NCBI GenBank assembly: GCA_963664325.2
Contig: CAXXDQ010000003.1
Location: 384,001-448,000, forward strand
Length of the DNA: 64,000 bases
Direction: 5' to 3'
Source of the DNA: Desulfomonilia bacterium
Lineage (GTDB): Bacteria > Desulfobacterota > Desulfomonilia > UBA1062
In this document: positions 15,535 through 40,956 of the stretch, piece after piece
Position numbering within the stretch: position 1 is the first letter of the stretch
Layout: each line of letters opens with the position of its first letter
Notes under the pieces: generated by a model
The model's input: only the letters and a program-made list of their open reading frames with translations
Databases searched by the model: none
What the model was told of the DNA's origin: nothing
Made by a program: the position numbers and the translations under genes

Positions 15535-16029
15535 TTAGATAAACCTCTCGAAACGGTCCGCTTTAGCCTTGCAGATGGGGCAGACCCCCGGCGGGTTGTC
15601 GCGTGCGCAAAGGTAACCGCAGACCCTGCACCGCCAGACGGGGTAGGGGAGTTCTTTATTTAAAAGCCCGGATGCATTCACTGTTTTAGCCTCTTTCTTA
15701 CCGGCAGGCCTTCTGTCGGGTATTGAGGAAAGCTTTTTGGCGCCCGTTGCGATTTCTTCCGTCACATAAAGGGCGCAGTAGCAGGCACCGTAATCCGTCA
15801 GGTCGGCGTCCCTGTAGTCGCAGGGGCAGATCATGTCCCTGTCTTCTTCGATGGTGCCCGAGGCAAGCCTGCAGGGGCAGGCCTGATAGCCGTAGCGGGC
15901 TTCATTTTCGAGGAGGCCTTCAGCAATGACCGTGGTAAAACCGTCATCAGGATTTATCCGGTAACCGCCTGCCAGTGCGTCGGTCTTCAGCTTCGCCAGA
16001 AGACCGGAGGCCTTTGAAGCATCACTCAT
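15535..16029 (-). CDS. Ferredoxin-thioredoxin reductase catalytic domain fused to rubredoxin (FDR-like)
   Basis: CPCR, CPCD and CYC motifs; C-terminal WRCRVCGY...CPICK. Confidence 0.92.
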   Translation of the reverse strand: MSDASKASGLLAKLKTDALAGGYRINPDDGFTTVIAEGLLENEARYGYQACPCRLASGTIEEDRDMICPCDYRDADLTDYGACYCALYVTEEIATGAKKLSSIPDRRPAGKKEAKTVNASGLLNKELPYPVWRCRVCGYLCARDNPPGVCPICKAKADRFERFI

Positions 16030-20527: not shown

Positions 20528-20695
20528 TACAGGGCGTTATAACAAATTTTCTCTACACCTTCGGTTTGAGGAGCGAAACAGGATGCTCATGATCCCATTA
20601 TTGCATCACGAAAATTGACGCATCGAAGATACGCCCGAAGGGTGAGTGCCGATAATGGCCCGATTCAAAGGTGTATGAAGTTATAACGTCCTGTA
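20528..20695. mobile_element. MITE-like element 2 (168 bp)
   Basis: TIRs TACAGGGCGTTATAAC / GTTATAACGTCCTGTA; nested inverted repeat tacacctt...aaggtgta; abuts the deoC stop codon. Confidence 0.7.
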
Positions 20696-21394
20696 CTAAA
20701 CCTCGACGACGCCGTCCGGCAAGGCCGCGCATTCCCCGAGTATTTTAAGTCCCGAGGCGGCGCCTATGCCGAAACGCTCGGCGCCGAGTTTATACAACTC
20801 AATCATTGTCTTTAAATCCCTGATGCCGCCCGAAGCCTTGATCTTGAGCTGATCGCCGACACATTTTTTCATTAATGCGATGTTATGCGGGGTCGCGCCG
20901 GTCGGTGTGTGGCCTGTGGCTGTTTTCACAAATTTGGCCCCTGCCTCGATGCAGCATTCACAGCCCTTTTCTATGTCGTAGTCCTTCAGGTAGTGGACTT
21001 CGAATATGACCTTGACGGTCCTTCCGGCGGCCGTATCCACGACGGCCCTGATGTCGTCCCTGACATACTGATACCGGCCGGAGAGAAGCGCCGAGATGTT
21101 TATCACCATGTCCAGCTCTTTACAGCCGTCTTCTAACGCGAGCTTTGCCTCATGGACTTTAATGGCCGTTTTGTGGTTTCCGAACGGAAAGCCTATACCC
21201 GTTCCTATCAGCACATCGTCGCAGCCTTCAAGGAGCGCATTCAGCTCCGCCACAAAGTAGGGCAGGACATGGGCGCCGATAAACCTGTATTTTCTGACGT
21301 CTGCCGCAAACCCCCTCAGCTCCTTTTCGTCCACTTCCGGCCTTACGATGCTGAAATCCATCATCCTGGCGAGATCGTGCGCATTAAGCTTCAT
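20696..21394 (-). CDS. deoC: Deoxyribose-phosphate aldolase (divergent)
   Basis: GFPFG, ELDMVIN, KVIFE, FVKTATG (Schiff-base Lys), KASGGIR. Confidence 0.88.
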   Translation of the reverse strand: MKLNAHDLARMMDFSIVRPEVDEKELRGFAADVRKYRFIGAHVLPYFVAELNALLEGCDDVLIGTGIGFPFGNHKTAIKVHEAKLALEDGCKELDMVINISALLSGRYQYVRDDIRAVVDTAAGRTVKVIFEVHYLKDYDIEKGCECCIEAGAKFVKTATGHTPTGATPHNIALMKKCVGDQLKIKASGGIRDLKTMIELYKLGAERFGIGAASGLKILGECAALPDGVVEV

Positions 21395-21413
21395 CTTTTA
21401 CCTCCGGTAATAA

Positions 21414-22895
21414 CTATTTCCAGTATCCGAGCATATGTTTGTAAAATTGTATAAATTCATTTTGCAATTCCTCATATATTCTGACGGATTTTTCATCAGG
21501 CTCGATAACGGTTTTTTCTGAAAAAAGCATGTTTGCAGCCCCGGATAAATCCGTTAACAACCCTAAACCGTATGCCCCGAGCATGCCGGCGCCGGATAGT
21601 GTTGTTTCGGGCTCTCCTGCGATTTCAACAGGCACACCGTAAACATCGGCCTTGATCCTGTTAAGAAGCCGGTTGCGGGTCGCACCACCGATGCAGCATA
21701 CCCTTTTAATTTTTACGCCAAGTTTTCTGAAGACCGCCGCGTTCATACCGAGCGCGAGAGCCGTGCCTTCCATGACGGCGCGGGAGAAATGACCTGATCT
21801 GTGCCCGGGAGTGATGCCGGCGAACATGCCCCGTGAGTTCACATTATCGCTCCTCCTCTCTCCGAGCAGGTAGGGATAGAACATGAGGCCGTCCGAGCCT
21901 TCGGAAATGTTCCCGGCAGATGTAATTATGTCATCATAAGATATACCGGCGCCGGCTGCCGATGAGATGAAATCCCTGCACCATTTCATGTTGAGCCCGC
22001 CCGTATCGAGCATGACGAAAGGCACCCAGCCGCCAAGCACATGCATGAGGTTCGAGACGGCAGGGTGAATAACAGGCGAATCCTTCTGAACGACGAAAAG
22101 GGAAGATGACCCTGTCATGTCAACAGCCGTTTCGCCGTCGGTCAGTCCGAGTGCAACCAGACTTACTATGAAATCACCGCCTCCCGCCATGACCGGTGTG
22201 CCTTCTGCCAGGCCGGTATGCATGGCGGCGTCTCTGGTAACACGGCCGATAATCTCATGAGACCTGAAAATCCCGGGGAACTTGTTCAGGTCAAGGCCGA
22301 GCCTTTCCGCCATTTCATCAGAATATTGCCCTTTATCCGAGTCAATCAGGAATGAACCCGAGGCCTCGCTGAAATCGGTTGCAAGGGAGCCTGTGAGTCT
22401 GTAATTGATGAAATCCTTGGGTACCAGGAAGCATTCCGTTTTTTCATATACCTCAGGCTGGTTGTCCTTTATCCATTTGACCTTGAGTCCGGTCCATCCG
22501 GCCCCCGGGACATTTCCCGTGGTTTCCTGAAGCAGTTTCTCGCCGAAGGAGAGCCTCGCCTTGATGCACTGAGGTTCGCACCTCTTGTCGCACCAGAGCT
22601 GGGTGAATTCCGTAGTGATGTCTCCGTCAAACCCGATGCCTGTCGGGCCGTGCATCTGGCCGCATGCCATGACACCTGCGATTTCCGATGGTCTTATTCC
22701 GCTCTTTGCCAGAACATCCCTTATGACGTTTGTTGTGATGTCCCACCAGGCGACGGGGTTTTGCTGAGCCCACCCCGGATGCGGGCTCTCGATTAAATGA
22801 ACCTGCTGAGATACGGCAACGGCCCTGCCTTCGGGCGTCATGAGGCCGGCCCGTATGCTCTGTGTTCCGAGGTCTATGGCCAGGATACGTTTCAT
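21414..22895 (-). CDS. FGGY-family carbohydrate kinase (xylulokinase-like)
   Basis: AIDLGTQS, GQMHG, WCDKR, GGGD, PYLLGER. Confidence 0.92.
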   Translation of the reverse strand: MKRILAIDLGTQSIRAGLMTPEGRAVAVSQQVHLIESPHPGWAQQNPVAWWDITTNVIRDVLAKSGIRPSEIAGVMACGQMHGPTGIGFDGDITTEFTQLWCDKRCEPQCIKARLSFGEKLLQETTGNVPGAGWTGLKVKWIKDNQPEVYEKTECFLVPKDFINYRLTGSLATDFSEASGSFLIDSDKGQYSDEMAERLGLDLNKFPGIFRSHEIIGRVTRDAAMHTGLAEGTPVMAGGGDFIVSLVALGLTDGETAVDMTGSSSLFVVQKDSPVIHPAVSNLMHVLGGWVPFVMLDTGGLNMKWCRDFISSAAGAGISYDDIITSAGNISEGSDGLMFYPYLLGERRSDNVNSRGMFAGITPGHRSGHFSRAVMEGTALALGMNAAVFRKLGVKIKRVCCIGGATRNRLLNRIKADVYGVPVEIAGEPETTLSGAGMLGAYGLGLLTDLSGAANMLFSEKTVIEPDEKSVRIYEELQNEFIQFYKHMLGYWK

Positions 22896-24073
22896 ATCCT
22901 CTCTTTCAATATCTCCGCAATATCTTCCCTGGTAAGCCTGACCGCATTGTTCTTAAGCTCGGTTTCACCGGCAATCCTGTCGATATCCGCATCAGTCACG
23001 CCGTAGCCGCGCAGGAGCGGCATTTGAAGCCTCTCGGACCAGCCGTAAAGCACGTCAGTCAGAATATCGCATAGTTCATTAACCTTTGATTCGTCATAGA
23101 CCCTTCCACTTAAAATGGCCCCGACCCATGCATGCTTTTTCAGCTGAACCCCGTCAGGGTCTTTTTCTTTTAAAACCTCAATATTCTTTTTAGTTGCCAC
23201 GGCAAGGAGCGTGCCGCAGATAACGCCGTGCGGGATATTAAAGAAGCCTCCTATCGCCGAGGCGAAGCCGTGAATGACCCCGAGGCCCGAATTGGCCAGT
23301 GTGATGCCCGATATGAGGGCTCCGTAGGCCATGTCCGAGCGAGCGCCGATGTCGCCAGCACCGGTGGTGCTGGCGCTGACAAGGCTCCTGCCGACAGCCT
23401 CCATGCCGCTCACGGCCAGGGCATCGGTCATGGGCGCAGGTTTTACCGACACATAGGATTCAAGAAGCTGGACGAACGCGTCCATGCCGCATGAGGCCGT
23501 TATTGCTCCGGGGCATGTCAGCATGAGCCCGGGGTCTATCAGTGCAACGTCCGGCACGAAATTATCATGCCTGAGAGATTTCTTATAACCTCCGGGCCCG
23601 ACCTTTGACAGCACGGCATTCTTGGTCGCCTCGCTGCCTGTTCCTGATGTTGTAGGAACAGCAATGAAAGGCACCTTTGTACCCGGGTGCACATCCCTGC
23701 CTATGCCTTCAAGAAAGCCCTCGACAGGCTTGTCAATCTTGAGCATTGCCGATACGGCCTTGCCTGAATCAACGGCGCTGCCTCCGCCCACAGAGACGAT
23801 GACCGAAATGTCATTTGCCCTGTATTTCTTTGCCATGGTGTCGATCAGGTTGGGTGAAGGTTCGGCCGTCACTGTTTCAACCGAGGCCGTGATGCCTTTT
23901 GTATTCAATCCGTTTAAAAGGTCATCAAGCTTGCCGGAGGTGTCCAGGAATCCGCCGCCTGAGATGATCAGCGCTTTTTTTCCGTATGCCGATATTATAT
24001 CCGGCAATGCCGAAAACTTGCCTGCCCCGAATTCTATCCTTGGTATCCTGGCAAAACCGAATGCGTTTATCAT
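22892..24073 (-). CDS. Iron-containing alcohol dehydrogenase
   Basis: GGGSAVDSGK, PTTSGTGSEATKNAV, GMDA, GLGVIHG, PHG. Confidence 0.93.
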   Translation of the reverse strand: MINAFGFARIPRIEFGAGKFSALPDIISAYGKKALIISGGGFLDTSGKLDDLLNGLNTKGITASVETVTAEPSPNLIDTMAKKYRANDISVIVSVGGGSAVDSGKAVSAMLKIDKPVEGFLEGIGRDVHPGTKVPFIAVPTTSGTGSEATKNAVLSKVGPGGYKKSLRHDNFVPDVALIDPGLMLTCPGAITASCGMDAFVQLLESYVSVKPAPMTDALAVSGMEAVGRSLVSASTTGAGDIGARSDMAYGALISGITLANSGLGVIHGFASAIGGFFNIPHGVICGTLLAVATKKNIEVLKEKDPDGVQLKKHAWVGAILSGRVYDESKVNELCDILTDVLYGWSERLQMPLLRGYGVTDADIDRIAGETELKNNAVRLTREDIAEILKERI

Positions 24074-24090
24074 TATAAGCACCTTGAAAT

Positions 24091-25071
24091 TTATTTTTGG
24101 CAAAGAGCCCTTAATCCATATGATTCAAAGCTTTCTGCTATCTGCTTTATCCTGTCTTCATCCAGCTTGCCGAACTCCCTGTAATCGGCGCCTCTGCCGA
24201 TCTTTTCAAATTTTGTTTTATACAGGGAATTATAAGGCATAAGATTGATATCACCATCAAAATCATATTTTTTGAAAAAGTCAGCGAATGCCTTGATTGA
24301 CGCTTCATCTGTGTTGACACCAGGTATTACTGGAATCCTTGGAACAAGCTTCTCGACTCCCGCCTTATCCAGAATCGAGATGAAATTATCGAGAATCCTC
24401 TTGTTGTCCTTTCCTGTCAAGGCTTTGTGCTTGGCCGCATCAATCTGCTTGAGGTCAAAAAGGAACAGGTCTGTCAGAGGAAGAAGTTCATCAATCAGGC
24501 TTTCGTCAAAATACCCGCATGTCTCTAATGCAGTATGAATGCCCGCCTTTTTTGATTGATCGAGCATCTCCAGCAGAAAAACCTTCTGCAGGCTTGGCTC
24601 GCCTCCCGAGAACGTCACGCCTCCACCTGAATTGTCATAAAACGGCCTGTCCGGCAAAACTGTTCCGATTACCTCTTTCACATCCATTTCTTTGCCTATC
24701 ATTTGCGTCGCCCCTGTCTCACAGACCGAGACACACATGCCGCAGGCTTTGCAGCGGGAGCCATCCCTGATGAGACTCCTGGCTTTTGCAGAAAGACTTC
24801 TGGATAAGATTGTTTTTATTTTGTTTATCGACTTGTCAGCTTGCGATTTATCAGCCAGCCTCAATGCTTTGTTCTGGCATACCTTCACGCACTTGCCGCA
24901 ACAGACGCACTTTTCTGAAAGGTATCCGGTCTCGGGTTTCATCTTCTGAGATTCGGGATTTTGGCACCAGGCGCATTTTAAGGGACAGCCTTTCAGGAAA
25001 ACGACAGTCCGGATTCCGGGGCCGTCGTGGATGCAGTAATGCTGAATGTCGAAGATAATTCCCATTCCCAT
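24091..25071 (-). CDS. Glycyl-radical enzyme activating protein (radical SAM with ferredoxin insert)
   Basis: HDGPGIRTVVFLKGCPLKCAWCQNPE; CVCCGKCVKVC and CKACGMCVSVC; GGGVTFSGGEP. Confidence 0.95.
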   Translation of the reverse strand: MGMGIIFDIQHYCIHDGPGIRTVVFLKGCPLKCAWCQNPESQKMKPETGYLSEKCVCCGKCVKVCQNKALRLADKSQADKSINKIKTILSRSLSAKARSLIRDGSRCKACGMCVSVCETGATQMIGKEMDVKEVIGTVLPDRPFYDNSGGGVTFSGGEPSLQKVFLLEMLDQSKKAGIHTALETCGYFDESLIDELLPLTDLFLFDLKQIDAAKHKALTGKDNKRILDNFISILDKAGVEKLVPRIPVIPGVNTDEASIKAFADFFKKYDFDGDINLMPYNSLYKTKFEKIGRGADYREFGKLDEDRIKQIAESFESYGLRALCQK

Positions 25072-25074
25072 TTG

Positions 25075-27642
25075 TCAGACCTGCTGGTGCTCCGAGCGCG
25101 AGATGATTTCCTCCTGAATCTCATAACCCAGGTCAACAAAATAGGCGCTGTAGCCGCCGACCTTCACGATCACATCCTGGTAGGAGTCAGGGTCTTTCTG
25201 CGCGGCCCTTAAAACTTCCGTTGAAACGACGGTAGGCTGAATCTGCTCACCGCCCATCTTGAAATAAGTATCAATGAGCGAGATCCATTTTTCTCTGACA
25301 GCGCCGGTTTCCCCGATACCTGTCGGGTGCATGCGGATATTGACGGCGCAGCCCAGTACATGGGAATAGTCCAGGGCTGAAACCGATTTTAAAACACCGG
25401 TAGGGCCTTTTGTATCGACGTTATAGGGGTTGCAGCTTGCTGCAAAAGGTTTGGCCGCCTTCCTGCCGTCGGGAGTCGCGATGAATATGCGGCCGTCATA
25501 GGTATGCGCGGTCATGCTGTTTATAAATGGTGCGTAAATTCCACCTTTATATGTCCTGTATTTTGACATCTCCTCGAAAATCGCTGTCGTAACCTTCCGG
25601 GCGATTTTATCGGTCTCGGGATTGCCATTGCCCCATTTTCCGGGCAGTGACAGGATATTTGCAAGCATGCCCTCATAGCCCTCATAATTGCTGTCGATTG
25701 CCTGAAGAAGTTCCCTGATGCTGAACAGCCTCTGTTCATAGACAAGCTTTTTGATAACATAAAGCGAGTCTGTCAGGTTCGCTATGCTGTTCATGACGAG
25801 AATGCCCTCAAGGTCATACACCGCCCCGCCCTGCGTAACATCCTTCTTTTTTTCAAGGCAACCCTGCATGAAAGCCGAAATGAGAGGCGCAGGCAGGTTC
25901 TCGGCATGCGTTTTGTCCCTGATAAACGAGGCCCGGGCAATGTTCCTTATCTGCAGGGAGGCCTGCTTTATGAACGCGTTTTCGAAATCTCCGTAAGACC
26001 TGAACGAATCCGGGTCGCCGGTTTTCAGCCCTGCGTCCTTGACAAGACATATGACGACCTGGGCGTCTCCGTTTCTGAGCGTCATGTCGAGCGTCCGGCA
26101 GAGCAGGATGGAACTGAAAGCCTCGCCTCCGGTCTTGCCCGGCGCGCACATGTCGACGCAGCCGGTTATTGCATAATCAAGGGCATCCTCATGGGAGAAG
26201 CCGTGCTTTTCGAGCGCCCTGACAGCGATTTCATCGTTCATTATGGAGATGCTCGAATTGCCCCTGTGCTGAAGTTCGGCGACCTTTTCCATCAGTTCCC
26301 TGGGGCTGTCCTTATGGATACGTACTGCAAAGTTGAGCGCCGCCTTTGATTCCGCGGCGGCATCAAGCATGACATATGTAAGCTCATTTGTGGCGTCTCG
26401 GCCGTCATGCGTCAGACCGCCCATTGTCACGGGCTCGGAGCCCTCATAGCGTTGTGTGAAATAGGCAGTGAAATTTGAGTACGGCCTCATGTTGTGGCTC
26501 ATGATCTTTAAAAAAAGCTCCTGCAGAATAAGAGAGGCTTCTCCTTCTGTAATCCGGCCTTCCTTCAGGTCATTTATGTAAAAGGGATAAAAAATCTGGT
26601 CGAGCCTTCCGGGTGCATGAACGTTGAAAGGTACGGCCAGCTCGACCGCTGTCTTGACCGTCCAGTACGACTGAACGGCCTCTTTGAAGGTGCGGGCCGG
26701 GTTCAGCGGGACTTTTGAACATGTCTCATACATTTCCGACAGGATGCGCCTCTGTTCGGGGTCGGTCTCTTTCCCAAGCTCCAAACCGAGCTTTTCGGCA
26801 AGGCGTTTTGAAAAAGTGATTACACCTTCAAGTGCTGTCTCGACTGATTTTAAAAAGGTATACTCTTCTTCGGCCTCAGCGCAGGTCGAGCTTAGAAGCG
26901 CGCTCACCTCATCCTTCATGGACAGGAGCCCTTTTTTGACGGGGGTTACATGATCGAGTATGAGATGCCCTTGCCATGTGCCCAGCGCGGCGCCTGCGGA
27001 AATCACCATGTCGTTCCTTGAGGTCGCCTGTGGCATGGCCGCTGTAAGGCTCTCAAGCTCGCCCCTGTGAATGTCAGTTTTGTCGACTGCGGACTTGATT
27101 TTATCGACCAGCGTTTTTCCCTTCCAGAAGGGCAGGAGTTTCTTTTGCAGGATGCGCTTGTCAACTGGGCTGATCCTGTATGGGTTTATCTTCCTTCTGT
27201 CCATTGTGGACAGGCCGATTGATGGCATGGCGATGCCCAGGCCCTTCATTTTCTTAAGGTTTTGAAAAAAGTTTGCAATGCCGTGACGCCTGAACATGTA
27301 GAGAAGGAACCTGGCATTGGATTTTATCTGATAGAAGAGCATGGAGCCCACATCCAGTTCGGTCTCGAATACGTTATTGAAAAGCCCCCTCTCGATATCG
27401 ACCGGGATGCCGAGAAAATTCTCCGTCCATGTGCCTGCAATGCGGTCGTCGGGATCAATATGAAACCCCATGTTATCATAGACATGCTTCATGGACTCGG
27501 CCGCTTTTATGGCGTTCGGCACCGAAGAATCCATTGAAATCCACTTTTCGGTAAATAACCCGGCCCTCTGGATTGAAATGAAAGGGGTCTCTTTGACGTA
27601 TCGGTTTCTGAGACTTTTAATCCTGTCGGGCCCTGTTCTCAT
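25075..27642 (-). CDS. Glycyl radical enzyme (PFL-like family), paralog 1
   Basis: 855 aa; PGRLDQ, Cys loop TGCVDM, ATPDGRKA, Gly loop VIVKVGGYSAYF; activase directly downstream. Confidence 0.93.
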   Translation of the reverse strand: MRTGPDRIKSLRNRYVKETPFISIQRAGLFTEKWISMDSSVPNAIKAAESMKHVYDNMGFHIDPDDRIAGTWTENFLGIPVDIERGLFNNVFETELDVGSMLFYQIKSNARFLLYMFRRHGIANFFQNLKKMKGLGIAMPSIGLSTMDRRKINPYRISPVDKRILQKKLLPFWKGKTLVDKIKSAVDKTDIHRGELESLTAAMPQATSRNDMVISAGAALGTWQGHLILDHVTPVKKGLLSMKDEVSALLSSTCAEAEEEYTFLKSVETALEGVITFSKRLAEKLGLELGKETDPEQRRILSEMYETCSKVPLNPARTFKEAVQSYWTVKTAVELAVPFNVHAPGRLDQIFYPFYINDLKEGRITEGEASLILQELFLKIMSHNMRPYSNFTAYFTQRYEGSEPVTMGGLTHDGRDATNELTYVMLDAAAESKAALNFAVRIHKDSPRELMEKVAELQHRGNSSISIMNDEIAVRALEKHGFSHEDALDYAITGCVDMCAPGKTGGEAFSSILLCRTLDMTLRNGDAQVVICLVKDAGLKTGDPDSFRSYGDFENAFIKQASLQIRNIARASFIRDKTHAENLPAPLISAFMQGCLEKKKDVTQGGAVYDLEGILVMNSIANLTDSLYVIKKLVYEQRLFSIRELLQAIDSNYEGYEGMLANILSLPGKWGNGNPETDKIARKVTTAIFEEMSKYRTYKGGIYAPFINSMTAHTYDGRIFIATPDGRKAAKPFAASCNPYNVDTKGPTGVLKSVSALDYSHVLGCAVNIRMHPTGIGETGAVREKWISLIDTYFKMGGEQIQPTVVSTEVLRAAQKDPDSYQDVIVKVGGYSAYFVDLGYEIQEEIISRSEHQQV

Positions 27643-29013
27643 TTACTTTTCCCTTGTCTTAAGCTCGTCAAGGATTCTTTTGTGGTATGCGGCGTCTATC
27701 GGGTAGAAGAAAATCAGGATCATACCCAGAATGATAAAGGCGATCGGGATGAATGAAATTAATAGTCTTATGCCGACAAGCGTCTCCCCTGTCTGCTGAA
27801 CATTTGCAATAAATCCGAAATGTGCAAGCCCGGTGCCGGCCACATATCCTGAAATGGCTGAGCCTATTTTCATGCACAGAAAATAGACGCCGTATATCGT
27901 GCCCTCGCGTCTCAGTCCTGTTTTCCATTCGGAATATTCGACAGTGTCAGGCACCATGGCCCAGGGGAAAAGAAAGACTGTGGACATTCCGATTCCTGCA
28001 ATAAAGAACAGTGCAAAGATGGCATAGAGATTATCGCCGGGCATGAAATACATCCCTGTCAGGGATGCCATTAGCATGATCATCCCCACATTGAACCCGA
28101 ATTTTTTGCTCTTTTTGTTCGAGAGCCATATGAATGCAGGTATGAAAACCGCAGCTGTGACAAACAACGCAATAAATGCGATTGAGACGAGGTTTTCTTT
28201 ATGAAGATTGTATTTGAAGAAATAAACTACAATTATCGCCAGCAGGTTGACTGCAGCCATGTAAAGGGTGACGCCGCCGGCCAGAAGGAGAAAAGGGCCG
28301 TTTAAAAAAATTACTTTCAGATTCTCAAAAAAAGGAAGCTTTTCCTCCAGGTCGACATGCTTGACCCTTTCCCTGACGGTAGAAAATGTTATCAGAATAA
28401 TAACGGCTATGATAATACCGTATATGGCGCCTATCCATCTGAATCCGGTTGCCTCGTTCGGAAACAGCGACGCCAGAGGTTTGGTAGCCGCCGCTGCGAA
28501 AAGGGTCCCCAGGAGGGCGAACGTCATCCTGAATCCGGTAATGCCAGAACGTTCTTTGGCATCAAGGGTCATGTCTGCGGTTAAGGCTCCGTACGGCACG
28601 TTGACCGTGGCTATGGCAGTGCTGAAAACAATGAATGTCGCCGCTGCGTAAATTATTTTCATGTTAAGGCTTAGATGAGGTCCGTAAAAAAGAAGAAAGG
28701 TCATAAGGCCCAGAGGGACGGCCCCGAAAAGCAGAAACGGGCGCTTTCTTCCCCATCTGGAATTCGTGTGGTCGCTGATGGTTCCGATTATGGGGTCTAC
28801 TACGGCGTCCCAGATTTTGGATCCCATGAATATCATGCCCGCAATCCCGACAGGCAGCATGAAAACATCAGTAAAAAAGTAGAGAAGGTACAAGGCGCAA
28901 ACCTGATAACCGAGGCAAAAAGCAAAATCGCCCACGCCGTATCCGAATTTCATACCCAGGGGGACCCTTTCCGATTCCGCCAATGTCAAATCTTTTTCCA
29001 ATGTTTTTGTCAT
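27643..29013 (-). CDS. Glycoside-pentoside-hexuronide (MelB/GPH) cation symporter 1
   Basis: KFGYGVGD, WDAVVDP, SRWGRKRPFLLFG, PDTVEYSEWKTGLRREG. Confidence 0.93.
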   Translation of the reverse strand: MTKTLEKDLTLAESERVPLGMKFGYGVGDFAFCLGYQVCALYLLYFFTDVFMLPVGIAGMIFMGSKIWDAVVDPIIGTISDHTNSRWGRKRPFLLFGAVPLGLMTFLLFYGPHLSLNMKIIYAAATFIVFSTAIATVNVPYGALTADMTLDAKERSGITGFRMTFALLGTLFAAAATKPLASLFPNEATGFRWIGAIYGIIIAVIILITFSTVRERVKHVDLEEKLPFFENLKVIFLNGPFLLLAGGVTLYMAAVNLLAIIVVYFFKYNLHKENLVSIAFIALFVTAAVFIPAFIWLSNKKSKKFGFNVGMIMLMASLTGMYFMPGDNLYAIFALFFIAGIGMSTVFLFPWAMVPDTVEYSEWKTGLRREGTIYGVYFLCMKIGSAISGYVAGTGLAHFGFIANVQQTGETLVGIRLLISFIPIAFIILGMILIFFYPIDAAYHKRILDELKTREK

Positions 29014-29048
29014 GAAACATCCTTGAATTTTATTTTTCAGCAAGAGTA

Positions 29049-29092
29049 ACTGAACATGATTCAGTAATAAACTTATAAGCTCCCATAGTCAA
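29049..29092 (-). promoter_or_regulatory. Sigma-70-like promoter overlapped by the palindromic operator ACTGAA-CATGA-TTCAGT
   Basis: TTGACT-17-TATTAC on the minus strand; perfect 6-bp inverted repeat at 29049-29065 over the expected +1. Confidence 0.6.
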
Positions 29093-29196
29093 TATCCATA
29101 ATCAATGTTGGGATTTTCTGAGCATATTTCACAAAAGGTATCCTGCAACATCTTCATGATTCGTTTGAGTTAAGGAATTGACCGGATTGCTGGCAT

Positions 29197-30346
29197 TCAG
29201 TATTCGCCGAATGCATGGGCTGCTTCCACCATGACTTTCAATTTGGAAGCGGGGTACAGTATCAATGGAATGCGCAGCGGCAAGTATGTATCTGCCTCCT
29301 TGGGCAAGCCCGTCTATAAGCCTTCTTACTTCTTCAACTACTTCTTCGGCGGTTGAACGTTCCGTCAACAAATAGTCAACACCGACATTTCCCATAATGG
29401 TGATCCTGTCACCGTGGAGTCTTTTCTCACTGTAAATATCCACGTTGGATGTCGGCTCGAATGCATGGAACCCGTCGAACCCCCAGGATATAAATGTATC
29501 GAACAAGAGCGTGTTGTCACCGCATGAATGCAGAAGCATTCTTGCGGAGCGGGCATGAACGGCTTTAATCACTTTCCTGTAAAATGGGCCGAAGACTTCG
29601 TTTACCATCTTCGGACCGAAAAAAGGTCCCGTTTTCTGTGCGAAGTCATCACCTATCAGAATGACTTTTGCCCCGGCGTCCAGCACGGCAGTGACCGAAT
29701 TGAAAATAATATCTGAACACCAGTCAAGGTATTGTTCTGTAAGCTTTTTTTCCTTCTTCATCCACAGGGGGGCATTTCCGATTCCTACTGAGAGCAGAAG
29801 GCTGTCCTGCAAACCGCCACATGGGCAGGCGAAGATGCAGATATCCTCACCATATTTATCAAGCATCCTTTTGTAGAATTTATATATTCTTTGAGCGTAA
29901 TCGTCCGGGCTTTCGAAATACGGCCATTCTTCGAAGTCTTTGGATGATCTTATCGCTGGCCCTCGGTACATGTAGCTCATGTTCCCGTAACCGTCTTCGA
30001 TCAGGTTGTAGATGAGCCCGTTGATATTTGCCATTGTATCATAATCCAGAATGACCATGTTCTCTCCGCATGCAAGCCACATGGCGTCGAATCCGAACCT
30101 TATCGCAGCTTTGGTGTGCTTTTCCATCCCGCCGTTAATGGCATTGTGTGCAATATGAGTGCTGATCTTCTGGTGATTGTTCAGGACATGTTTCATGAAC
30201 GGATTTCTGAAGAGTGCCTTGGGGGGTATAATGGGTTTTCCCATGATTTCATTTGCCGTCCTGTCCTCAAGGCCCGCGCACATAACCGGCACCCTGTCGA
30301 CAGGCAATCCGTCCATAGTTCTCAAAACTCGCTCGGTGGGGTTCAT
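29197..30346 (-). CDS. Uroporphyrinogen decarboxylase/MtaA-CmuA methyltransferase family protein; +1 frameshift near 29252
   Basis: ERV...PVDRVP, GDDFA, LHSCG, FEP, MGNV, GGRYILAAAHS. Removing one C gives the typical end VPASKLKVMVEAAHAFGEY*. Confidence 0.85.
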
Positions 30347-31708
30347 ATACTTTCCTTCATGGCTCCTATATCGCCGATGATCTTTAAATGGGCCTTTTCG
30401 TCGATGGGATAGAAAGAGAAAACTGTCATTCCGGCAATGATGAAAAGCAGCGGAACCAGCGTGACCATCACTTTTATGCCGAAAAGGGCAGTACCGCTCT
30501 GAACAGTATTAGGGACATAACCCGAAAGCTTTAGTCCCCAGCCGGCTATGAACCGGAAACAGCAGCGCTTATTTTGAAGCACAGGAAAAAGCATCCGAAC
30601 AGCGTCCCTTCACGCCTCAATCCTGTTTTCAGCTCCGAGTATTCGACAGTATCGGGAACAAGCGCCCAGGGAGAAAGATAGATCGTGGAAAAACCTATAC
30701 CGCCGAGAATGAAAAGCAGCATTACAATCGTTGTGCCGGCATCTCCCAAAAAGTAAAAAAGTATGAGCATAAGGCCCAGAAGGCCTACGCCAAGATTGAA
30801 GGCGAACTTCTTCCCTCTGGCCTTTGATATGAAAACGAATACGGGAATAAAGATTGCAGCCGTTACAAACAGGGCGAGAAATGCAAAAGGGATCATCTTT
30901 TCCATCCGAAGATTGTATTTGAAATAGTAATTTACCATTGCCGCAAGCAGATAGACCGCTATCATGTAAAGGACAGTTGAGGTAGCAAGGATGATAAACG
31001 GTGTATTGACCTTGATCACCCAAAGGCTGTTCTTTATGGAAAGCTTCTCTTCTAACGGGTGAGCTACCCGCTCTCTGACGCTGGCGAAGGTGATGATCAG
31101 TATCACTGAGATTATGATTGCATAAAAGATTCCAACCATCCTGAAGCCGTAGGCCTCATTCGGGAATAATGCAACCAGAGGTTTTGTAGCCCCTGCAGCG
31201 AAGAGTGAACCGAGAAGGGCGAATATCCCCTGAAGCCGGATATGCTCGATCGCTCTTTTGCATCCAGAGTCATGTCTGCAATCAATGCCGCATAAGGCAC
31301 ACTGACTACTGCGATAGCTGTGCTGAAAAGCATAAAGGTCACCGTCGCATAGGCTATTCTGTAGCCCTCTGACAGTTTGGGGCCGGCGAACACCAGAAAG
31401 ACAGCCAGCGACAGAGGTATTGCCCCAAACAGCAGATACGGACGCTTTTTCCCCCATTTAGTTCTTGTATGGTCGGTAATGACGCCGACAACAGGGTCGC
31501 TTACGGCATCCCAGAGTTTTGAGACCATAAAGATGGTACCTGCGCTCACGGCGCTTATCATGAACACATCGGTGAAAAAGTAGATAAGATAAAGCGCGCA
31601 AACCTGATAGGCAACATTAACGGCGAAGTCGCCCGTTCCGTATCCGAACTTCATCGAGAACGGGATATTATCTCTTCCCTCGATGTTTTGAACCGGCATA
31701 CTTTTCAT
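30343..31708 (-). CDS. GPH/MelB cation symporter 2; two -1 frameshifts near 31228 and 30553
   Basis: Three ORF fragments collinear with the paralog at 27643-29013 (KFGYGTGD, YQVCALYL, PDTVEYSELKTGLRREG). Confidence 0.88.
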
Positions 31709-34286
31709 ATCATTTTGTGTTCACTTCTTGCGATGATTTCTTCCTGTATTTCATTTCCGAGTTCGACGAAATATGCACTATAGCCTCCGACTTTTACAAT
31801 GACATCTCTGAACTGGTCAGGATTTTTTTTGCGCAGCGCGCAGGGTTTCAGTAGAAACGATTGTAGGTTGGAGCTGTTCTCCGCCGAGGCTGAAATATGT
31901 CTTTATGAGGGATATCCATTTTTTCTGCGTTTCCTCGGTTGCGCCGATCGCCGAAGGATGCACCTTGATGTTGACGGCGCAGCCCAGAACTTCACTGAAG
32001 TCTATTGCCGCAACCGAGCGGAGGACTCCGGTGACACCGTTTTTATCCACATTGTACGGACCACAGCTCGGCGCATAGGGCTTGCCTGCTTTTCTGCCGT
32101 CAGGAGTGGCGACAGCAATCCGCCCGTCATAGGTGTGAGATGTCATGCTGTTTATATACGGTGCATAAAAACCTTTGTTAAAGGTCTTGTATTTGTAGGT
32201 CTCGTCGAAAATTCCCTTTGTTATCCGGGAAGCGATTTCATCGGATTCGGAATTTCCGTTGCCCCACTTTCCTTCAACGTTTTCAATGAGGCTTAATATG
32301 CGGTCATGTCCCTCGAAATTATTATCAATCGCTTGAATCAACTCGGCGAATGTAAACAGCCTCTTATCGAATATAAGCTTCTTTATTATGTATAAAGAAT
32401 CAACAACATTGGCGATGCTGTTGAGCATGAGTATGCCTTCGAGCGTATATATGCCTCCGCCGTGAACGACGTCTCTTTTATTTTCAAAACATCCCTGAAT
32501 GAATGCCGAGATGTGTGGTGCAGGAAATTTCTCGGCAAAACATTTGTCGCGTATGTGTGTCGCATCGACGACAATCTTCATCTGGAATGAGGCCTGTTTG
32601 ATGAAAGCATCCACTAGTTCATTAAATGATTTAAACGTGTCCGGATCGCCGGTTTTGACCCCGACATTGCTCAGTGTCCCTATGAGGGTCTGCGAATTGC
32701 CGTTCCTGAGCGTCATGTCCAGGATACGACACAATGGCATTGCCGAAAATCCTTCATGTCCGGTTTTTCCTTCGGATATCATGTCGACGCATCCCGTTAG
32801 GCAAAATGCATTTGCGTCCTGCCTTGAAAAGCCGCGTTTGGTGAGAGCCCGGATGCTTACATCATCGTTTATTACGGCCACACTCGAAACGCCGTGATAG
32901 TGCAGATCGGCAACGGCCTTATAAAGCATTTCCGGCGAGTTCATATGAAGACGGACAAAAAAATTCATAGTGGTTTTCGAACAGGCTGCAGCCTCGAGCA
33001 TGAGAAAGGAGAGTTCATTCGTAGCGTCTTTTCCGTCTTCGGTCAAGCCACCCATAGTAACGGGCATCGATCCTTCATACCGTTGCACATATGCACTTGT
33101 ATAGCCCGAAAACGGGCGTATGTTGTGGGTTATTATCTTTAGAAAAAGTTCTTCCAGCAGTTCTTTGGCTTCCTCCCTGCTGATAAGGCCGTTTTTCATA
33201 TCGCTTTCATAATACGGGAAAAAACAGCTGATCCAGTCTGCCCGGGCCGTGAGCGTTCAAGGGAACGGCAAGTTCGACTGCGGTTTTTACCGTCCAAAAC
33301 GACTGAACCGCCTCAGCAAAGGTTGTCGCCGGGTGCAGGGGTACTCTTGAACAGCGCTCGTAGATCTCAGACAGTGTTTTCCTGCGTTCGGGATCGGTTT
33401 CCTTATCGGCCTCTGACTTGACTTTTTCGGCGAGCCTTCTGGCATAGATTATAACGCCATCGAGTGCAATGCCGGCCGACTTCAGGAAATCCCTTTCTTC
33501 CTCGCTCATCTCTTTGCCGTTAGACAGCTCCGAGGATATTCTTTCCTTCATTTTCAGAAGGCCGTCCCTGATAGGTGTTTTATGGTCAAGTATCAGATGT
33601 CCCTGCCATGTACACGTAACTGCCCCGGGAGATAGGAATGTCCAGTAGCTGGCAGTATCTCTCGGAAGGGCCGCCACGAAGTCCTTCATGTCTCCTTTGT
33701 AGATATCCGAGTTTTTCAGTTCTTTATGAAAAATTTCTGCGAGCGTCTTGCCTTCCCAGTACGGCAAAAGGTCATTCTGCAGGAATTTCTTGTCGCCAAT
33801 GCCGATTCTGTATGGATTCACCTTTCTCTCAGACATTGTTTTTGTCCCTATGCCGGGCATATCCGCTCCGATTCTTTTCAGCTTTCTGGCGCTGTTGTAG
33901 AGCTTGAAAACACCGTATTTCTTGATAAGATATTTGTAGAAATTCAGGTTTGTCTTTACCTGATGCAGAATAACAGACTGTTTATCAAGTTCTATCTTGA
34001 GAACATCATTGAAAATACCTTTTTCGATGTCGATAGGAACGCCCAGAAAATTCTCTGTCCATGTACCGACAATCCTGTCGTCTGGATCAATATTCAGGTT
34101 CATGTTTTCATATACGTTTTTAAGTGAAAGGGCGACTCTTATTCCAAGCGGAAGATTGCCGGTCTCTGTCTTTTTCCATTTTTCCGTATAATATTTTGCA
34201 CGTTCTATTGATATGACAGGGACTTCTTCATGATACCTTCTGCGAATTCTTTGAATCCTTTCAGATGCCATGTATTGCCGTTCCAT
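31705..34286 (-). CDS. Glycyl radical enzyme paralog 2; +1 frameshifts near 33222 and 31826
   Basis: Fragments 33207..34292, 31817..33199 and the tail PDQFRDVIVKVGGYSAYFVELGNEIQEEIIARSEHKMI* are collinear with GRE1; TGCVDM Cys loop; GGGAGG RBS. Confidence 0.88.
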
Positions 34287-34339
34287 AACCAACCTCCCTT
34301 TTAAGGTAATCAGGCAGACGTTTCTCCATACAAATTGTA

Positions 34340-34441
34340 TGTATGAGGAAATCGTAGAAGGTTGTCAAGTGAATAATATTCAACAATAAATGATTAATGT
34401 TAAAAAGCCATAAAAAGGCATTAAAAGCCATTAAAATGGCA
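34340..34441 (-). promoter_or_regulatory. Promoter region of the GRE2 operon: TTGACA, palindrome TGAATAATATTCA and four phased 10-bp repeats
   Basis: TTGACA on the minus strand at 34363-34368; palindrome at 34370-34382; taaaaagcca/taaaaaggca/ttaaaagcca/ttaaaatggc at 34401-34440. Confidence 0.55.
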
Positions 34442-34596
34442 TATTTATAAATATGAACTAATGGTATGAAATACAATAAAATAATCATATTCAATTAAAA
34501 ATGTAAATGCTGCTCGTTGCCGGTGTTATGAAAAAGAGGGAAACTGGGTGATGGTTGCAGAGAAAAATTGAAACCGGTTGGGAATGTGAAGGTGTT

Positions 34597-35238
34597 CTAC
34601 GGTCTGTTTTTAAGAATTCCGAAGAAGGTCATTTCAAGAGACTGTTTGATAAGTTCTTCGAGCTTGATATGAATAACTGTCCCGATATTGTTTCTTTCTG
34701 CAAGGAGGATAAGTCCGTCCATCAACCCCCAGAATATATTCGTGGCTTTCCATGTATCAAGAGGGAGGAACTCCCCTGAATCGATCCCATGCTTTATTAT
34801 ATCTTCGATTAATTTCAGAAGTTTCAATGTCTTTACCCTGATGATTTCGCTTAACTCGGAATCGGTTTCCTTGAGTTCCTTTGGTGTTGCGCTTAGTACG
34901 GAAAGGATGTCGAAATATTCTCTGTATTCAGTGTAATATCGGAGATATGTCATAGCCAGAGAGGATAGCTTTGCAGTACAGTTCATGGCAGGCCAGGAAA
35001 GGGTTTTTTCGATCATACCTGTTAAGAGGTCGAGACCCTCTTCCTGAAGGGTCTTATATATTTCAATCTTGTTTTTGTAATAGACATAGAAGGAACCGGT
35101 GCTCAAGCCGGCCTTCTGAGTGATCATGTTGATGGTCGTGCCGTAATAGCCTGTTGCGAAAAACAATTCTTTAGCTGACTTGAGCAGCATTAGTCTGCGC
35201 TTCTGCTTGTCCTCGACTGTTCTGGCGCGAATATTCAT
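34597..35238 (-). CDS. TetR/AcrR family regulator
   Basis: AKELFFATGYYGTT...AGLSTGSFYVYYKNK HTH. Confidence 0.93.
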   Translation of the reverse strand: MNIRARTVEDKQKRRLMLLKSAKELFFATGYYGTTINMITQKAGLSTGSFYVYYKNKIEIYKTLQEEGLDLLTGMIEKTLSWPAMNCTAKLSSLAMTYLRYYTEYREYFDILSVLSATPKELKETDSELSEIIRVKTLKLLKLIEDIIKHGIDSGEFLPLDTWKATNIFWGLMDGLILLAERNNIGTVIHIKLEELIKQSLEMTFFGILKNRP

Positions 35239-39686: not shown

Positions 39687-39697
39687 AAGTCCTCCTC

Positions 39698-40933: not shown

Positions 40934-40956
40934 TGTTCTCTCCTTGCCCTGGGCGG

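What the first reader, a model, noticed from the sequence alone, without database searches (positions are those of the whole stretch)
20696..34286. Candidate new radical pathway: twin non-canonical glycyl-radical enzymes coupled to FGGY kinase, DeoC aldolase, Fe-ADH and glycoside transporters
Seen: on one strand, GRE2-GPH2-URO-D then GPH1-GRE1-activase-ADH-FGGY kinase-deoC, mostly overlapping or separated by a few bases. Established: GRE 1,2-eliminases (glycerol and propanediol dehydratases, CutC) abstract H from a carbinol carbon and expel the vicinal substituent; DeoC cleaves 2-deoxyribose-5-P to glyceraldehyde-3-P and acetaldehyde; Fe-ADHs reduce aldehydes. Inference: the GRE converts a pentitol (ribitol/arabitol) or a C2-substituted pentitol, free or 5-phosphorylated by the kinase, to a 2-deoxypentose that DeoC and the ADH then process. 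I do not know a characterised GRE with this gene context. No deoA, deoB or deoD is present here, so DeoC is probably not serving nucleoside salvage at this locus.
Basis: partly seen in the sequence, partly recalled or inferred. Interest (0 to 1): 0.88.

Follow-up and report, generated by a model that had tools for sequence, protein, structure and literature searches.

The report
Radical enzyme operon with deoxyribose aldolase
An operon in an anaerobic bacterium links an unstudied family of oxygen-sensitive radical enzymes to a sugar kinase and a deoxyribose-phosphate aldolase, which points to an undescribed way of fermenting a sugar-like compound.

Summary
The gene string is real. On the minus strand it reads TetR, GRE2, GPH2, URO-D-like, GPH1, GRE1, activase, Fe-ADH, FGGY kinase, DeoC (20696-35238). 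In the window GRE2 and GPH2 each carry two one-base homopolymer frameshifts. A contig from a run of the same sample lacks all four, so they are probably assembly errors.

GRE1 and GRE2 belong to a large uncharacterised glycyl-radical family. Its glycyl loop is KVGGYS in 85 of 85 rows, and its Cys loop is CxD in 64 of 85 rows. It scores far below every curated class.

The coupling to the downstream genes is conserved. Fe-ADH-FGGY-DeoC follows a family GRE in 5 of 77 fetched loci. In 401 genomes of the phylum, the cluster-type DeoC (65% identity or more) and FGGY (52% or more) occur in the same six genomes. All six carry the GRE family, and none of the 390 genomes without it has either.

However, five other GRE-bearing genomes have neither gene, so the module is an add-on to the GRE core.

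Best reading (about 0.4): a dehydratase of a neutral imported polyol makes a 2-deoxyaldose, which is phosphorylated, cleaved by the aldolase, and the aldehyde reduced. The pentitol substrate is plausible but untested.

The parts
34597..35238 (-). TetR-family regulator upstream of GRE2
   Evidence: ORF of 213 aa. It falls in the same blastp cluster as the TetR_N proteins (PF00440) that lie directly beside the GPH/GRE genes in at least 10 other loci. Its only NCBIfam hit is a weak FadR-type TetR match.
34321..34351 (.). Imperfect inverted repeat in the 304-nt gap between TetR and GRE2; candidate operator
   Evidence: Arms of 12 nt, 83% complementary, 7 nt apart. No function was tested. Promoter-like sites in the region are no more frequent than in shuffles (20 found against a mean of 19.3).
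31708..34292 (-). GRE2, second glycyl radical enzyme of the same family; two one-base frameshifts in the window
   Evidence: Pfam PFL-like and Gly_radical domains lie on two ORFs. tblastn with GRE1 gives three pieces in three frames, 52-73% identical. The shifts sit at T6 (about 33219) and A8 (about 31823). The X1 contig lacks both, and the repaired frame is open for 885 codons with GCVD and KVGGYS.
30343..31708 (-). GPH2, glycoside-pentoside-hexuronide:cation symporter; two one-base frameshifts in the window
   Evidence: MFS_2 / TIGR00792 match on a fragment. There are three pieces in three frames, 36-66% identical to GPH1. The shifts sit at G4 (about 31227) and TT (about 30551). The X1 contig lacks both, and the frame is then open for 459 codons.
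29129..30346 (-). URO-D-fold protein (MtaA-like), function unknown
   Evidence: PF01208 at 96 bits over residues 187-361. The best solved relative is methylcobalamin:CoM methyltransferase at 34 bits. Relatives neighbour family GREs in 7 other loci. Atlas hits are only unnamed URO-D-domain clusters.
27643..29043 (-). GPH1, glycoside-pentoside-hexuronide:cation symporter
   Evidence: TIGR00792 at 365 bits, above the 231 cut-off; MFS_2 at 330 bits. A GPH of this blastp cluster lies in 25 of the 77 other loci.
25075..27642 (-). GRE1, intact 855-aa glycyl radical enzyme of the KVGGYS / CxD family
   Evidence: PFL-like at 464 bits and Gly_radical at 78 bits. No equivalog cut-off is reached. C495-V496-D497, K827-V828-G829-G830-Y831-S832 and Q224-G225-H226 are invariant in 18 aligned sequences.
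24091..25071 (-). Glycyl-radical activating enzyme (radical SAM with ferredoxin-like insert)
   Evidence: TIGR02494 at 330 bits, above the 174 cut-off; Radical_SAM and Fer4 domains. An activase of the same cluster lies in 46 of the 77 other loci.
22892..24103 (-). Iron-containing alcohol dehydrogenase
   Evidence: Fe-ADH and ADH_Fe_C domains. No equivalog cut-off is reached. The nearest solved relatives are methanol DH, 1,3-propanediol DH and lactaldehyde reductase at 114-143 bits.
21414..22895 (-). FGGY-family sugar kinase, xylulokinase-like
   Evidence: FGGY_N and FGGY_C domains. XylB TIGR01312 scores 326 bits, below the 380 cut-off. E. coli xylulokinase is the nearest solved structure at 204 bits.
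20696..21394 (-). Deoxyribose-phosphate aldolase, cluster-specific second copy
   Evidence: TIGR00126 at 201 bits, above the 117 cut-off. D102, K167, K201, G171, G204, G205 and R207 (E. coli numbering) are invariant in 9 sequences. It is 39% identical to the genome's other deoC.
20617..20635 (-). Terminator-like hairpin 60 nt after the deoC stop
   Evidence: Consensus scan gives 8 pairs and a T-rich tail. Such sites are only slightly more frequent than in shuffles (24 found against a mean of 16.7), so this is a weak call.

Best explanation
This is one long operon, under a TetR-type regulator, for anaerobic use of a neutral sugar-like compound.

Proposed steps:
1. A GPH symporter imports the compound.
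2. A glycyl radical enzyme of an uncharacterised family, switched on by the adjacent radical-SAM activase, abstracts H from a carbinol carbon and expels the neighbouring oxygen substituent. This is the chemistry of glycerol and propanediol dehydratases. The product is a 2-deoxyaldose.
3. The FGGY kinase phosphorylates the free end of that product.
4. The dedicated DeoC cleaves it to acetaldehyde plus an aldose phosphate. That phosphate is glyceraldehyde-3-P if the sugar has five carbons.
5. The Fe-ADH reduces the aldehyde.

The simplest substrates are pentitols. Ribitol and D-arabitol would both give 2-deoxy-D-ribose. That would also explain two paralogous GRE/transporter pairs feeding one downstream module.

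Shown: gene content, family membership, conserved motifs, synteny and co-occurrence.

Inferred: every chemical step, the order of GRE before kinase, and the substrate.
For: 1. Fe-ADH-FGGY-DeoC lies in this order next to a family GRE in 5 of 77 loci: L002, L003, L009, L010, L013. The record titles name Syntrophaceae, Desulfobacterales, Zymogenaceae, Thermodesulfobacteriota and Leptospirales. The same order is seen in L108.

2. Reverse test in 401 genomes of the phylum. DeoC at 65-69% identity occurs in 5 genomes plus the window's own, and the next best is 41%. FGGY at 52-54% identity occurs in the same 6, and the next best is 33%. The GRE family occurs in 11 of 401. All 6 are among those 11, and 0 of the 390 genomes without the family have either gene.

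3. The cluster DeoC keeps the catalytic and phosphate-binding residues. It is a second copy. No deoB was found, and no nucleoside phosphorylase scored above its cut-off.

4. GRE1 H226, in the invariant QGH motif, aligns with the GH histidine of propanediol dehydratase (chain residue 166) and of HypD. The 2026 review names the matching His164 of glycerol dehydratase as the acid that protonates the leaving hydroxyl (PMC13450708, section 5.6 read).

5. The two sulfonate-binding arginines of IseG align with L220 and F706. Many loci hold GPH-GRE-activase without any kinase. Both points fit a neutral, unphosphorylated substrate.

6. The order GRE-activase-Fe-ADH matches the dhaB1-dhaB2-dhaT layout of the clostridial glycerol dehydratase (recalled, not from a call). 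1,3-propanediol dehydrogenases are among the nearest solved Fe-ADHs.

7. Archaeal family members sit next to the same kinase type (49-53% identical) and a KDPG-type aldolase. Kinase plus aldolase therefore recurs across the family.
Against: - No substrate was tested, and nothing here fixes the carbon number or stereochemistry.
- 72 of 77 loci have no DeoC within 10 kb.
- Five genomes with GREs 62-83% identical to GRE1 have no cluster-type DeoC or FGGY. These include the nearest relative, L001, whose contig ends 1.1 kb after the GRE. Their completeness is unknown.
- Two spirochaete loci (L005, L007) keep only GPH-GRE-activase-Fe-ADH. The Fe-ADH may therefore act on the GRE product itself rather than on acetaldehyde.
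- GPH symporters are known for glycosides and uronides, not polyols (recalled).
- The Cys-loop acid is Asp rather than the Glu that the review reports for all eliminases and isomerases. The chemistry may therefore differ.
- Kinship inflates the co-occurrence count: 5 of the 6 positive genomes belong to one family, f14.
Confidence: 0.4

Rival explanations
1. The GRE is a ring-opening isomerase or ether lyase, like YbiW/PflD. It would act on an anhydro-alditol or a C2-O-substituted alditol. H abstraction at the primary carbinol expels the C2 ether oxygen and gives the same 2-deoxyaldose for the kinase and DeoC.
For: YbiW and PflD open 1,5-anhydrohexitol-6-phosphates, and an aldolase then cleaves the product (PMC13450708, section 5.7 read). 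That is the same GRE-then-aldolase logic. Two paralogues converging on one product match the epimer pair handled by YbiW and PflD. A URO-D / methyltransferase-like gene sits in the operon and beside 7 other family GREs, which could hint at O-methyl substrates.
Against: The PflD equivalog scores 337 bits against a cut-off of 1109. YbiW and PflD are more distant than CutC or HypD: 246-289 bits against 351-368. There is no PTS and no FSA-type aldolase here. The substrate looks unphosphorylated. Natural anhydropentitols are not known to me (recalled).
Confidence: 0.15
2. The GRE dehydrates a cyclic pentose or glycoside the way ribonucleotide reductase starts its reaction: H abstraction at C3 and loss of the C2 hydroxyl. 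The product is a 2-deoxy-3-keto sugar. The Fe-ADH then reduces it to a 2-deoxy sugar for the kinase and DeoC.
For: GPH carriers usually move ring sugars (recalled). The Fe-ADH stays with the GRE even where no DeoC or FGGY is found (L005, L007), so it may act on the GRE product. HypD shows that family relatives dehydrate ring substrates.
Against: Fe-ADHs nearest to this one act on small aldehydes. Ordinary pentoses already have simple non-radical routes (inference). No evidence here bears on regiochemistry.
Confidence: 0.15
3. GPH, FGGY, DeoC and Fe-ADH form a self-sufficient operon for free 2-deoxyribose. The GREs next to it do an unrelated job and travel with it by chance or by co-transfer.
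For: Transporter, kinase, aldolase and aldehyde reductase would be enough for deoxyribose (inference). In G054 the module and the GRE lie on different contigs, and in G275 one GRE lies 14.6 kb away.
Against: The cluster-type DeoC and FGGY were found in 0 of 390 genomes lacking the GRE family and in 6 of 11 that have it. The gene order is kept across GRE divergence of about 40%.
Confidence: 0.08
4. GRE2 and GPH2 are true pseudogenes in this organism, so only one GRE/transporter pair works.
For: The window holds four frameshifts in about 4 kb. The eight other genes of the string and six other GRE genes of the genome are uninterrupted. Low-depth contigs of X3 and X4 agree with the window near 33219, though only at their very ends.
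Against: The X1 contig (depth 8.9) differs from the window only at these four sites. Each difference restores the frame predicted from homology, with 0 substitutions in 4001 bases. All four sit in homopolymers. X3 contigs break exactly at two of the sites. This is what assembly error looks like.
Confidence: 0.2
5. The family are alkyl- or benzyl-succinate synthases, as was proposed for GREs of Hermodarchaeota.
For: A paper assigns Asgard GREs to Ass/Bss from 29-33% identity and a single-Cys loop (PMC8163825, passages read). One fetched locus, L015, comes from a Hermodarchaeota record. Whether it is the same protein set was not tested.
Against: Solved X-succinate synthases score lowest among PFL-like relatives: MasD 210 bits and TutD 178 bits, against 320-368 for eliminases. 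The neighbours are sugar carriers, kinases and aldolases, not small subunits or beta-oxidation genes.
Confidence: 0.02

Closest known systems
B12-independent glycerol dehydratase and propanediol dehydratase (GRE 1,2-eliminases) with their activase and Fe-ADH
   Same: PFL-like fold, a single catalytic Cys followed two residues later by an acidic residue, and the GH histidine. The order GRE-activase-Fe-ADH also matches. Dehydration of a 1,2-diol to an aldehyde is the chemistry proposed here.
   Different: The Cys loop is CxD rather than CxE, and the glycyl loop is KVGGYS rather than RVxG. Solved dehydratases score only about 323 bits. A kinase and DERA follow, the substrate is presumably larger, the carrier is a GPH, and no microcompartment genes were seen among the annotated neighbours.
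YbiW / PflD 'anhydroglycolysis' (GRE isomerases plus fructose-6-phosphate aldolase)
   Same: A GRE makes a deoxy sugar phosphate that a class I aldolase splits into a triose phosphate and a small carbonyl compound. Two paralogous GREs converge on one product (review).
   Different: Those substrates are phosphorylated by a PTS before the GRE acts, and the product is a 1-deoxyketose cleaved by FSA. Here there are a symporter, an FGGY kinase and DERA. Sequence relation is distant at 246-289 bits, and the PRK09983 cut-off is missed.
trans-4-hydroxy-L-proline dehydratase HypD and choline TMA-lyase CutC
   Same: These are the best-scoring solved relatives, at 351 and 368 bits over residues 144-852.
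   Different: Equivalog scores are 411 of 1100 and 403 of 1050. HypD Asp278 aligns with Asn340. The gene context has no amino-acid or choline genes.
Deoxyribose catabolism through a kinase and DeoC (deoK/deoC type; recalled)
   Same: Kinase, then DERA, then acetaldehyde plus glyceraldehyde-3-P. The DERA here meets its equivalog cut-off and keeps its catalytic residues.
   Different: The kinase is FGGY, not ribokinase-type. The module was found only in genomes that hold the GRE family. No nucleoside phosphorylase or mutase was found.

Membership tests
Glycyl radical enzymes, PFL-like branch | PFL-like catalytic domain plus C-terminal glycine-radical domain | tested here: met
   PF02901 at 464 bits and PF01228 at 78 bits for GRE1. 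Both are also on the GRE2 pieces.
Glycyl radical enzymes, PFL-like branch | Glycyl-loop fingerprint RVxG[FWY] | tested here: not met
   The loop is KVGGYS in 85 of 85 family rows. The six other GREs of the same genome carry R-[VI]-x-G-Y (RVxGY in five, RISGY in one). The Gly and the aromatic residue are kept; only Arg is replaced by Lys.
Glycyl radical enzymes, PFL-like branch | Cognate radical-SAM activase encoded nearby | tested here: met
   TIGR02494 at 330 bits, 3 nt downstream of GRE1. There is one activase for two GREs.
GRE 1,2-eliminases (GD, PD, HypD, CutC, IslA/IseG, HpsG/HpfG) | [quoted passage not shown] | tested here: not met
   GCVD in GRE1 and GRE2. The loop is CxD in 64 of 85 family rows and CVE in the 21 basal rows. 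The review states that all eliminases keep CxE.
GRE 1,2-eliminases (dehydratase subgroup) | Histidine that protonates the leaving hydroxyl (His164 of GD) | tested here: met
   H226, in the invariant QGH motif, aligns with the GH histidine of PD chain residue 166 and of HypD chain residue 180. Equivalence with GD His164 is by recall of the family alignment.
GRE 1,2-eliminases | Score above a curated equivalog cut-off | tested here: not met
   HpsG 418 of 1000, HypD 411 of 1100, CutC 403 of 1050, HpfG 351 of 1000. The PFL2-3 subfamily scores 461 of 678.
GRE 1,2-eliminases | Aldehyde or ketone product from a vicinally substituted alcohol | not testable with these tools
   This needs an activated enzyme and substrates.
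GRE isomerases YbiW/PflD | Equivalog score, PTS uptake and an FSA aldolase neighbour | tested here: not met
   PRK09983 scores 337 of 1109. The neighbours are a GPH carrier, an FGGY kinase and DeoC.
C-S cleaving GREs (IseG/IslA/HpsG) | Two arginines and a glutamine that hold the sulfonate | tested here: not met
   IseG R187 and R676 align with L220 and F706; Q191 aligns with Q224. The numbering offset was taken from the Cys loop.
X-succinate synthases | Close sequence relation and small subunits encoded nearby | tested here: not met
   MasD 210 bits and TutD 178 bits. No small-subunit-like genes appeared among the recurring neighbour clusters. Small ORFs under 90 aa were not examined.
Deoxyribose-phosphate aldolase (DERA, TIGR00126) | Equivalog cut-off, Schiff-base Lys167, Lys201, Asp102 and the phosphate-binding glycines and Arg | tested here: met
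   201 bits against a cut-off of 117. All these columns are invariant against E. coli DeoC.
FGGY carbohydrate kinases | FGGY_N and FGGY_C domains; equivalog for a named substrate | tested here: inconclusive
   Both domains are present. The best equivalog, XylB, scores 326 against a cut-off of 380, so the substrate is unassigned.

The most novel reading that the evidence does not exclude
A new branch of glycyl radical chemistry: a polyol (pentitol) dehydratase family with a Lys-for-Arg glycyl loop and an Asp-for-Glu Cys loop. It would open a redox-neutral 'deoxy-sugar shunt' running polyol, 2-deoxyaldose, 2-deoxyaldose phosphate, then triose phosphate plus acetaldehyde. The family is spread through sediment bacteria and Asgard archaea. 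There it would give the first function for an archaeal PFL-like GRE and would replace hydrocarbon-activation readings of those genes.
Probability: 0.3. Interest if true: 0.85.

Novelty: new variant of a known kind. Interest (0 to 1): 0.72.

Why it matters
- The 2026 review lists no GRE with this context or these motifs. It also says whole clades, and all archaeal PFL-like GREs, lack a function (sections 5.6, 5.7 and 7 read).
- This family is large: 780 proteins at E 1e-50 or below among 8000 scored candidates.
- Its members come from sediment Desulfobacterota, Dehalococcoidia, Spirochaetota and Asgard archaea.
- The operon offers a ready coupled assay, because the kinase, DERA and ADH together report any 2-deoxyaldose formed.
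- A radical dehydration that sends reduced polyols into glycolysis without making extra NADH would be a new fermentation route (inference).
- It would also question annotations of related archaeal genes as alkylsuccinate synthases.

Tried and rejected
Literature. Eight full-text searches found no paper that links a glycyl radical enzyme to DeoC, deoxyribose or sugar alcohols as substrate. Hits that hold both terms concern microcompartments or proteomics (search listings only). The primary YbiW/PflD paper is not held. Supplements were closed and may hold sequence lists that bear on the Hermodarchaeota comparison.

Rfam. There was no match in the whole window at gathering scores, so no riboswitch names the ligand.

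Promoter and terminator scans were no better than shuffles for promoters and only slightly better for terminators.

Expression. No RNA holder was listed for 30300-34300. Run X5 (other sample, raw reads, about 4 in 100 read) laid no read, which is no test.

URO-D-like gene. Pfam, PDB and Atlas gave only the fold family. Its role stays open.

Not run:
- structure prediction, fold search and complex prediction, because their outputs would not show the active-site pocket
- The search of protein representatives
- a bootstrap tree; the tree is FastTree only, GRE2 sits on a long branch with support 83, and the outgroup was not one side of a branch

The neighbour-cluster method used ORFs of 90 aa or more, so small genes are missed. 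It also split GRE2's N-terminal piece into its own cluster.

My first motif labels on the tree were regex-based and wrong for some rows, for example L049. The counts given here come from the alignment columns.

This is the same report with them filled in.

Full report
WHAT IS THERE

The minus strand of 20696-35238 carries, in transcription order:
- a TetR-family regulator (34597-35238)
- GRE2 (about 31708-34292)
- GPH2 (about 30343-31708)
- a URO-D-fold protein (29129-30346)
- GPH1 (27643-29043)
- GRE1 (25075-27642)
- a glycyl-radical activase (24091-25071)
- an iron alcohol dehydrogenase (22892-24103)
- an FGGY kinase (21414-22895)
- DeoC (20696-21394)

Neighbouring genes overlap by up to 13 nt or are up to 19 nt apart. 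The exceptions are 85 nt before GPH1 and 304 nt between TetR and GRE2. Rfam finds no RNA element in the window. Consensus promoter and terminator scans add little.

THE BREAKS IN GRE2 AND GPH2

In the window GRE2 lies in three frames and so does GPH2. From homology to GRE1 and GPH1 I predicted four one-base errors: T6 near 33219, A8 near 31823, G4 near 31227 and TT near 30551.

A Logan contig of run X1 is 43.5 kb long at depth 8.9. X1 comes from the same sample as X3 and X4 and may be the source of this DNA. The contig covers 30300-34300 with no substitution. It has exactly four one-base differences, at 33219, 31823, 31226 and 30550.

Applied in a script, these give open frames of 885 and 459 codons. 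The first carries GCVD and KVGGYS. X3 contigs (depth 2) end or start exactly at two of the sites.

The other eight genes of the string, and six other GRE genes of the genome, are uninterrupted. I read the four shifts as assembly errors with odds of about 0.8. Why they cluster here is unexplained.

THE GRE FAMILY

GRE1 (855 aa) has the PFL-like and glycine-radical domains. It reaches no curated equivalog: HpsG 418 of 1000, HypD 411 of 1100, CutC 403 of 1050, PflD 337 of 1109. The best solved relatives are CutC at 368 bits and HypD at 351 bits, while YbiW scores 246 bits.

Family members score 1125-1740 bits and are 57-88% identical. That search returned 780 proteins at E 1e-50 or below among 8000 scored candidates. 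Their sources name Desulfomonilia, Desulfobacterales, Dehalococcoidia, Lokiarchaeota/Promethearchaeota, Hermodarchaeota and Abyssubacteria.

In 18 aligned members C495-V496-D497, K827-V828-G829-G830-Y831-S832 and Q224-G225-H226 are invariant.

The alignment held 93 rows: 85 of the family and 8 others, namely six further GREs of this genome and two unrelated locus GREs.
- All 85 family rows have KVGGYS.
- 21 basal rows have GCVE.
- 64 rows have CxD: 54 GCVD, 9 SC[VT]D and 1 GCTD.

The six other GREs of this genome have GC[VL]E and R-[VI]-x-G-Y (RVxGY in five, RISGY in one). The family is one clade (support 100) in a FastTree tree. GRE1 groups with L001, L002 and L003 (support 100). GRE2 sits on a long branch beside the archaeal clade (support 83).

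ACTIVE-SITE HINTS

H226 aligns with the GH histidine of propanediol dehydratase and of HypD. The review names His164 of glycerol dehydratase as the acid for the leaving hydroxyl.

The sulfonate-binding Arg187 and Arg676 of IseG align with L220 and F706. HypD Asp278 aligns with N340.

This fits a C-O-cleaving enzyme with a neutral substrate. The Asp in place of the universal Glu is new among eliminase-like GREs.

CONTEXT ELSEWHERE

A scan of one genome per species matched 209 stretches. 180 of them encode relatives, and 77 loci were kept. tblastn with the window's proteins, neighbour clustering and Pfam on cluster representatives give these results:
- an activase in 46 of 77 loci
- a GPH carrier in 25
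- a TetR beside the genes in at least 10
- Fe-ADH in 8
- FGGY at 49-57% identity in 10
- DeoC at 65-73% identity in 5 (L002, L003, L009, L010, L013), always as Fe-ADH-FGGY-DeoC

Five archaeal loci (L011, L016, L018, L035, L044) carry the same kinase type next to the GRE, together with a KDPG-type aldolase. Four also carry a cupin sugar-phosphate isomerase, a 2-hydroxyacid dehydrogenase and a metallo-beta-lactamase-fold protein; L044 shows only the isomerase of these three. The basal GCVE clade instead sits with acetoacetate-decarboxylase-like, acyl-CoA-dehydrogenase, SDR and epimerase genes. URO-D-fold genes neighbour 7 other loci.

REVERSE TEST

In 401 genomes of the window's phylum (340 of good quality):
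- DeoC matches split into 65-69% identity (G012, G054, G125, G157, G275, plus the window's own copy) and 41% or less.
- FGGY matches split into 52-54% identity in the same genomes and 33% or less.
- The GRE family is in 11 of 401, and all six positive genomes are among them.

Larger stretches show GRE-Fe-ADH-FGGY-DeoC-GPH-GRE-activase in G012, and the same set in G125. In G275, Fe-ADH-FGGY-DeoC-GPH is followed by GRE fragments. In G054, Fe-ADH-FGGY-DeoC has the GRE on another contig.

Five of the six genomes are in one family (f14), so these are few independent events. None of the six other genomes of the window's own family has the GRE, which points to patchy spread.

RESULTS AGAINST A STRICT COUPLING

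Genomes G401-G405 hold L001, L005, L007, L004 and L012, with GREs 62-83% identical to GRE1. They have no DeoC above 43% identity and no FGGY above 34%. Their completeness is not known. L005 and L007 keep GPH-GRE-activase-Fe-ADH only. The kinase-aldolase pair is thus an add-on to a GRE core.

DEOC ITSELF

DeoC meets its equivalog cut-off. It keeps Asp102, Lys167, Lys201 and the phosphate-binding residues of E. coli DeoC. It is a second copy, 39% identical to the genome's stronger deoC at C3:1145364. No deoB was found, and no pyrimidine-nucleoside phosphorylase scored above its cut-off, in a genome 95.6% complete.

READING

The best fit is a dehydratase-type GRE. It would turn an imported neutral polyol into a 2-deoxyaldose, which is then phosphorylated and cleaved by DERA, with the aldehyde reduced. 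For a pentitol the sum would be pyruvate plus ethanol with no net NADH (inference).

Ring-opening of an anhydro- or O-alkyl-alditol would give the same downstream logic. So would dehydration of a ring sugar followed by keto-reduction. Neither can be excluded.

KNOWN OR NEW

The 2026 review lists six C-O, one C-N and three C-S eliminases and three isomerases, none with this context. It also says archaeal PFL-like GREs have no assigned function. Eight searches found nothing closer.

A Hermodarchaeota paper reads Asgard GREs as Ass/Bss from 29-33% identity. The neighbours seen here argue for sugar-type substrates in this family. I did not test whether their proteins belong to it.

This is a new variant within glycyl radical enzymes, well supported as a conserved pathway, with the substrate open.

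Noticed in passing
window 16646-20245 (-): A 1199-aa protein with a STAND NTPase domain and many TPR repeats lies directly downstream of deoC. It sits in the lowest-GC stretch of the window (0.39-0.41).
   Followed up: partly
window 37962-42072 (-): Upstream of the operon lie an acyl-CoA ligase and a pair like 2-hydroxyacyl-CoA dehydratase / benzoyl-CoA reductase subunits. Between them and GRE2 lie a second TetR and a 540-aa carboxylesterase-like lipoprotein. The ligase, a TetR and the esterase are also upstream of the GRE in L001.
   Followed up: partly
window 15535-16029 (-): A 164-aa ORF weakly resembles the FtrB double-selenoprotein family, at 63 bits against a cut-off of 160.
   Followed up: no
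L114 (E. coli K-12 4614680-4618102): In E. coli, deoC lies back to back with yjjI-yjjW, a DUF3029 protein and a putative glycyl-radical activating enzyme, as annotated in the record. This is another deoC next to a presumed radical system. It may be coincidence.
   Followed up: no
L060, L063, L071, L074, L075, L012, L042 and window 29129-30346: URO-D-fold proteins of two sizes (about 390-405 aa and about 505 aa) recur beside family GREs. In the basal clade they often sit directly upstream, as URO-D-GRE-activase.
   Followed up: partly
L054, L065-L070, L077 and others: The basal GCVE clade of the family sits with acetoacetate-decarboxylase-like, acyl-CoA dehydrogenase, SDR and epimerase genes and its own TetR type. 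This suggests a different, non-sugar substrate.
   Followed up: partly
L031, L037, L041-L047 (Promethearchaeota): The archaeal loci carry FAD oxidoreductase-GPH-KDPG aldolase-activase-GRE. Nearby are DUF2804, an M29 peptidase, a class-III aminotransferase and a PIG-L deacetylase, which hints at an amino-sugar-like substrate.
   Followed up: no
own genome G000: The genome holds eight GRE loci in 4.3 Mb, among them proteins of about 1000 and 1110 aa.
   Followed up: partly
G054:C17:10656-13207 and G275:C5:644663-645550: Family GREs in two other assemblies are also split or carry an in-frame stop. Broken GRE genes in such assemblies may often be errors.
   Followed up: no
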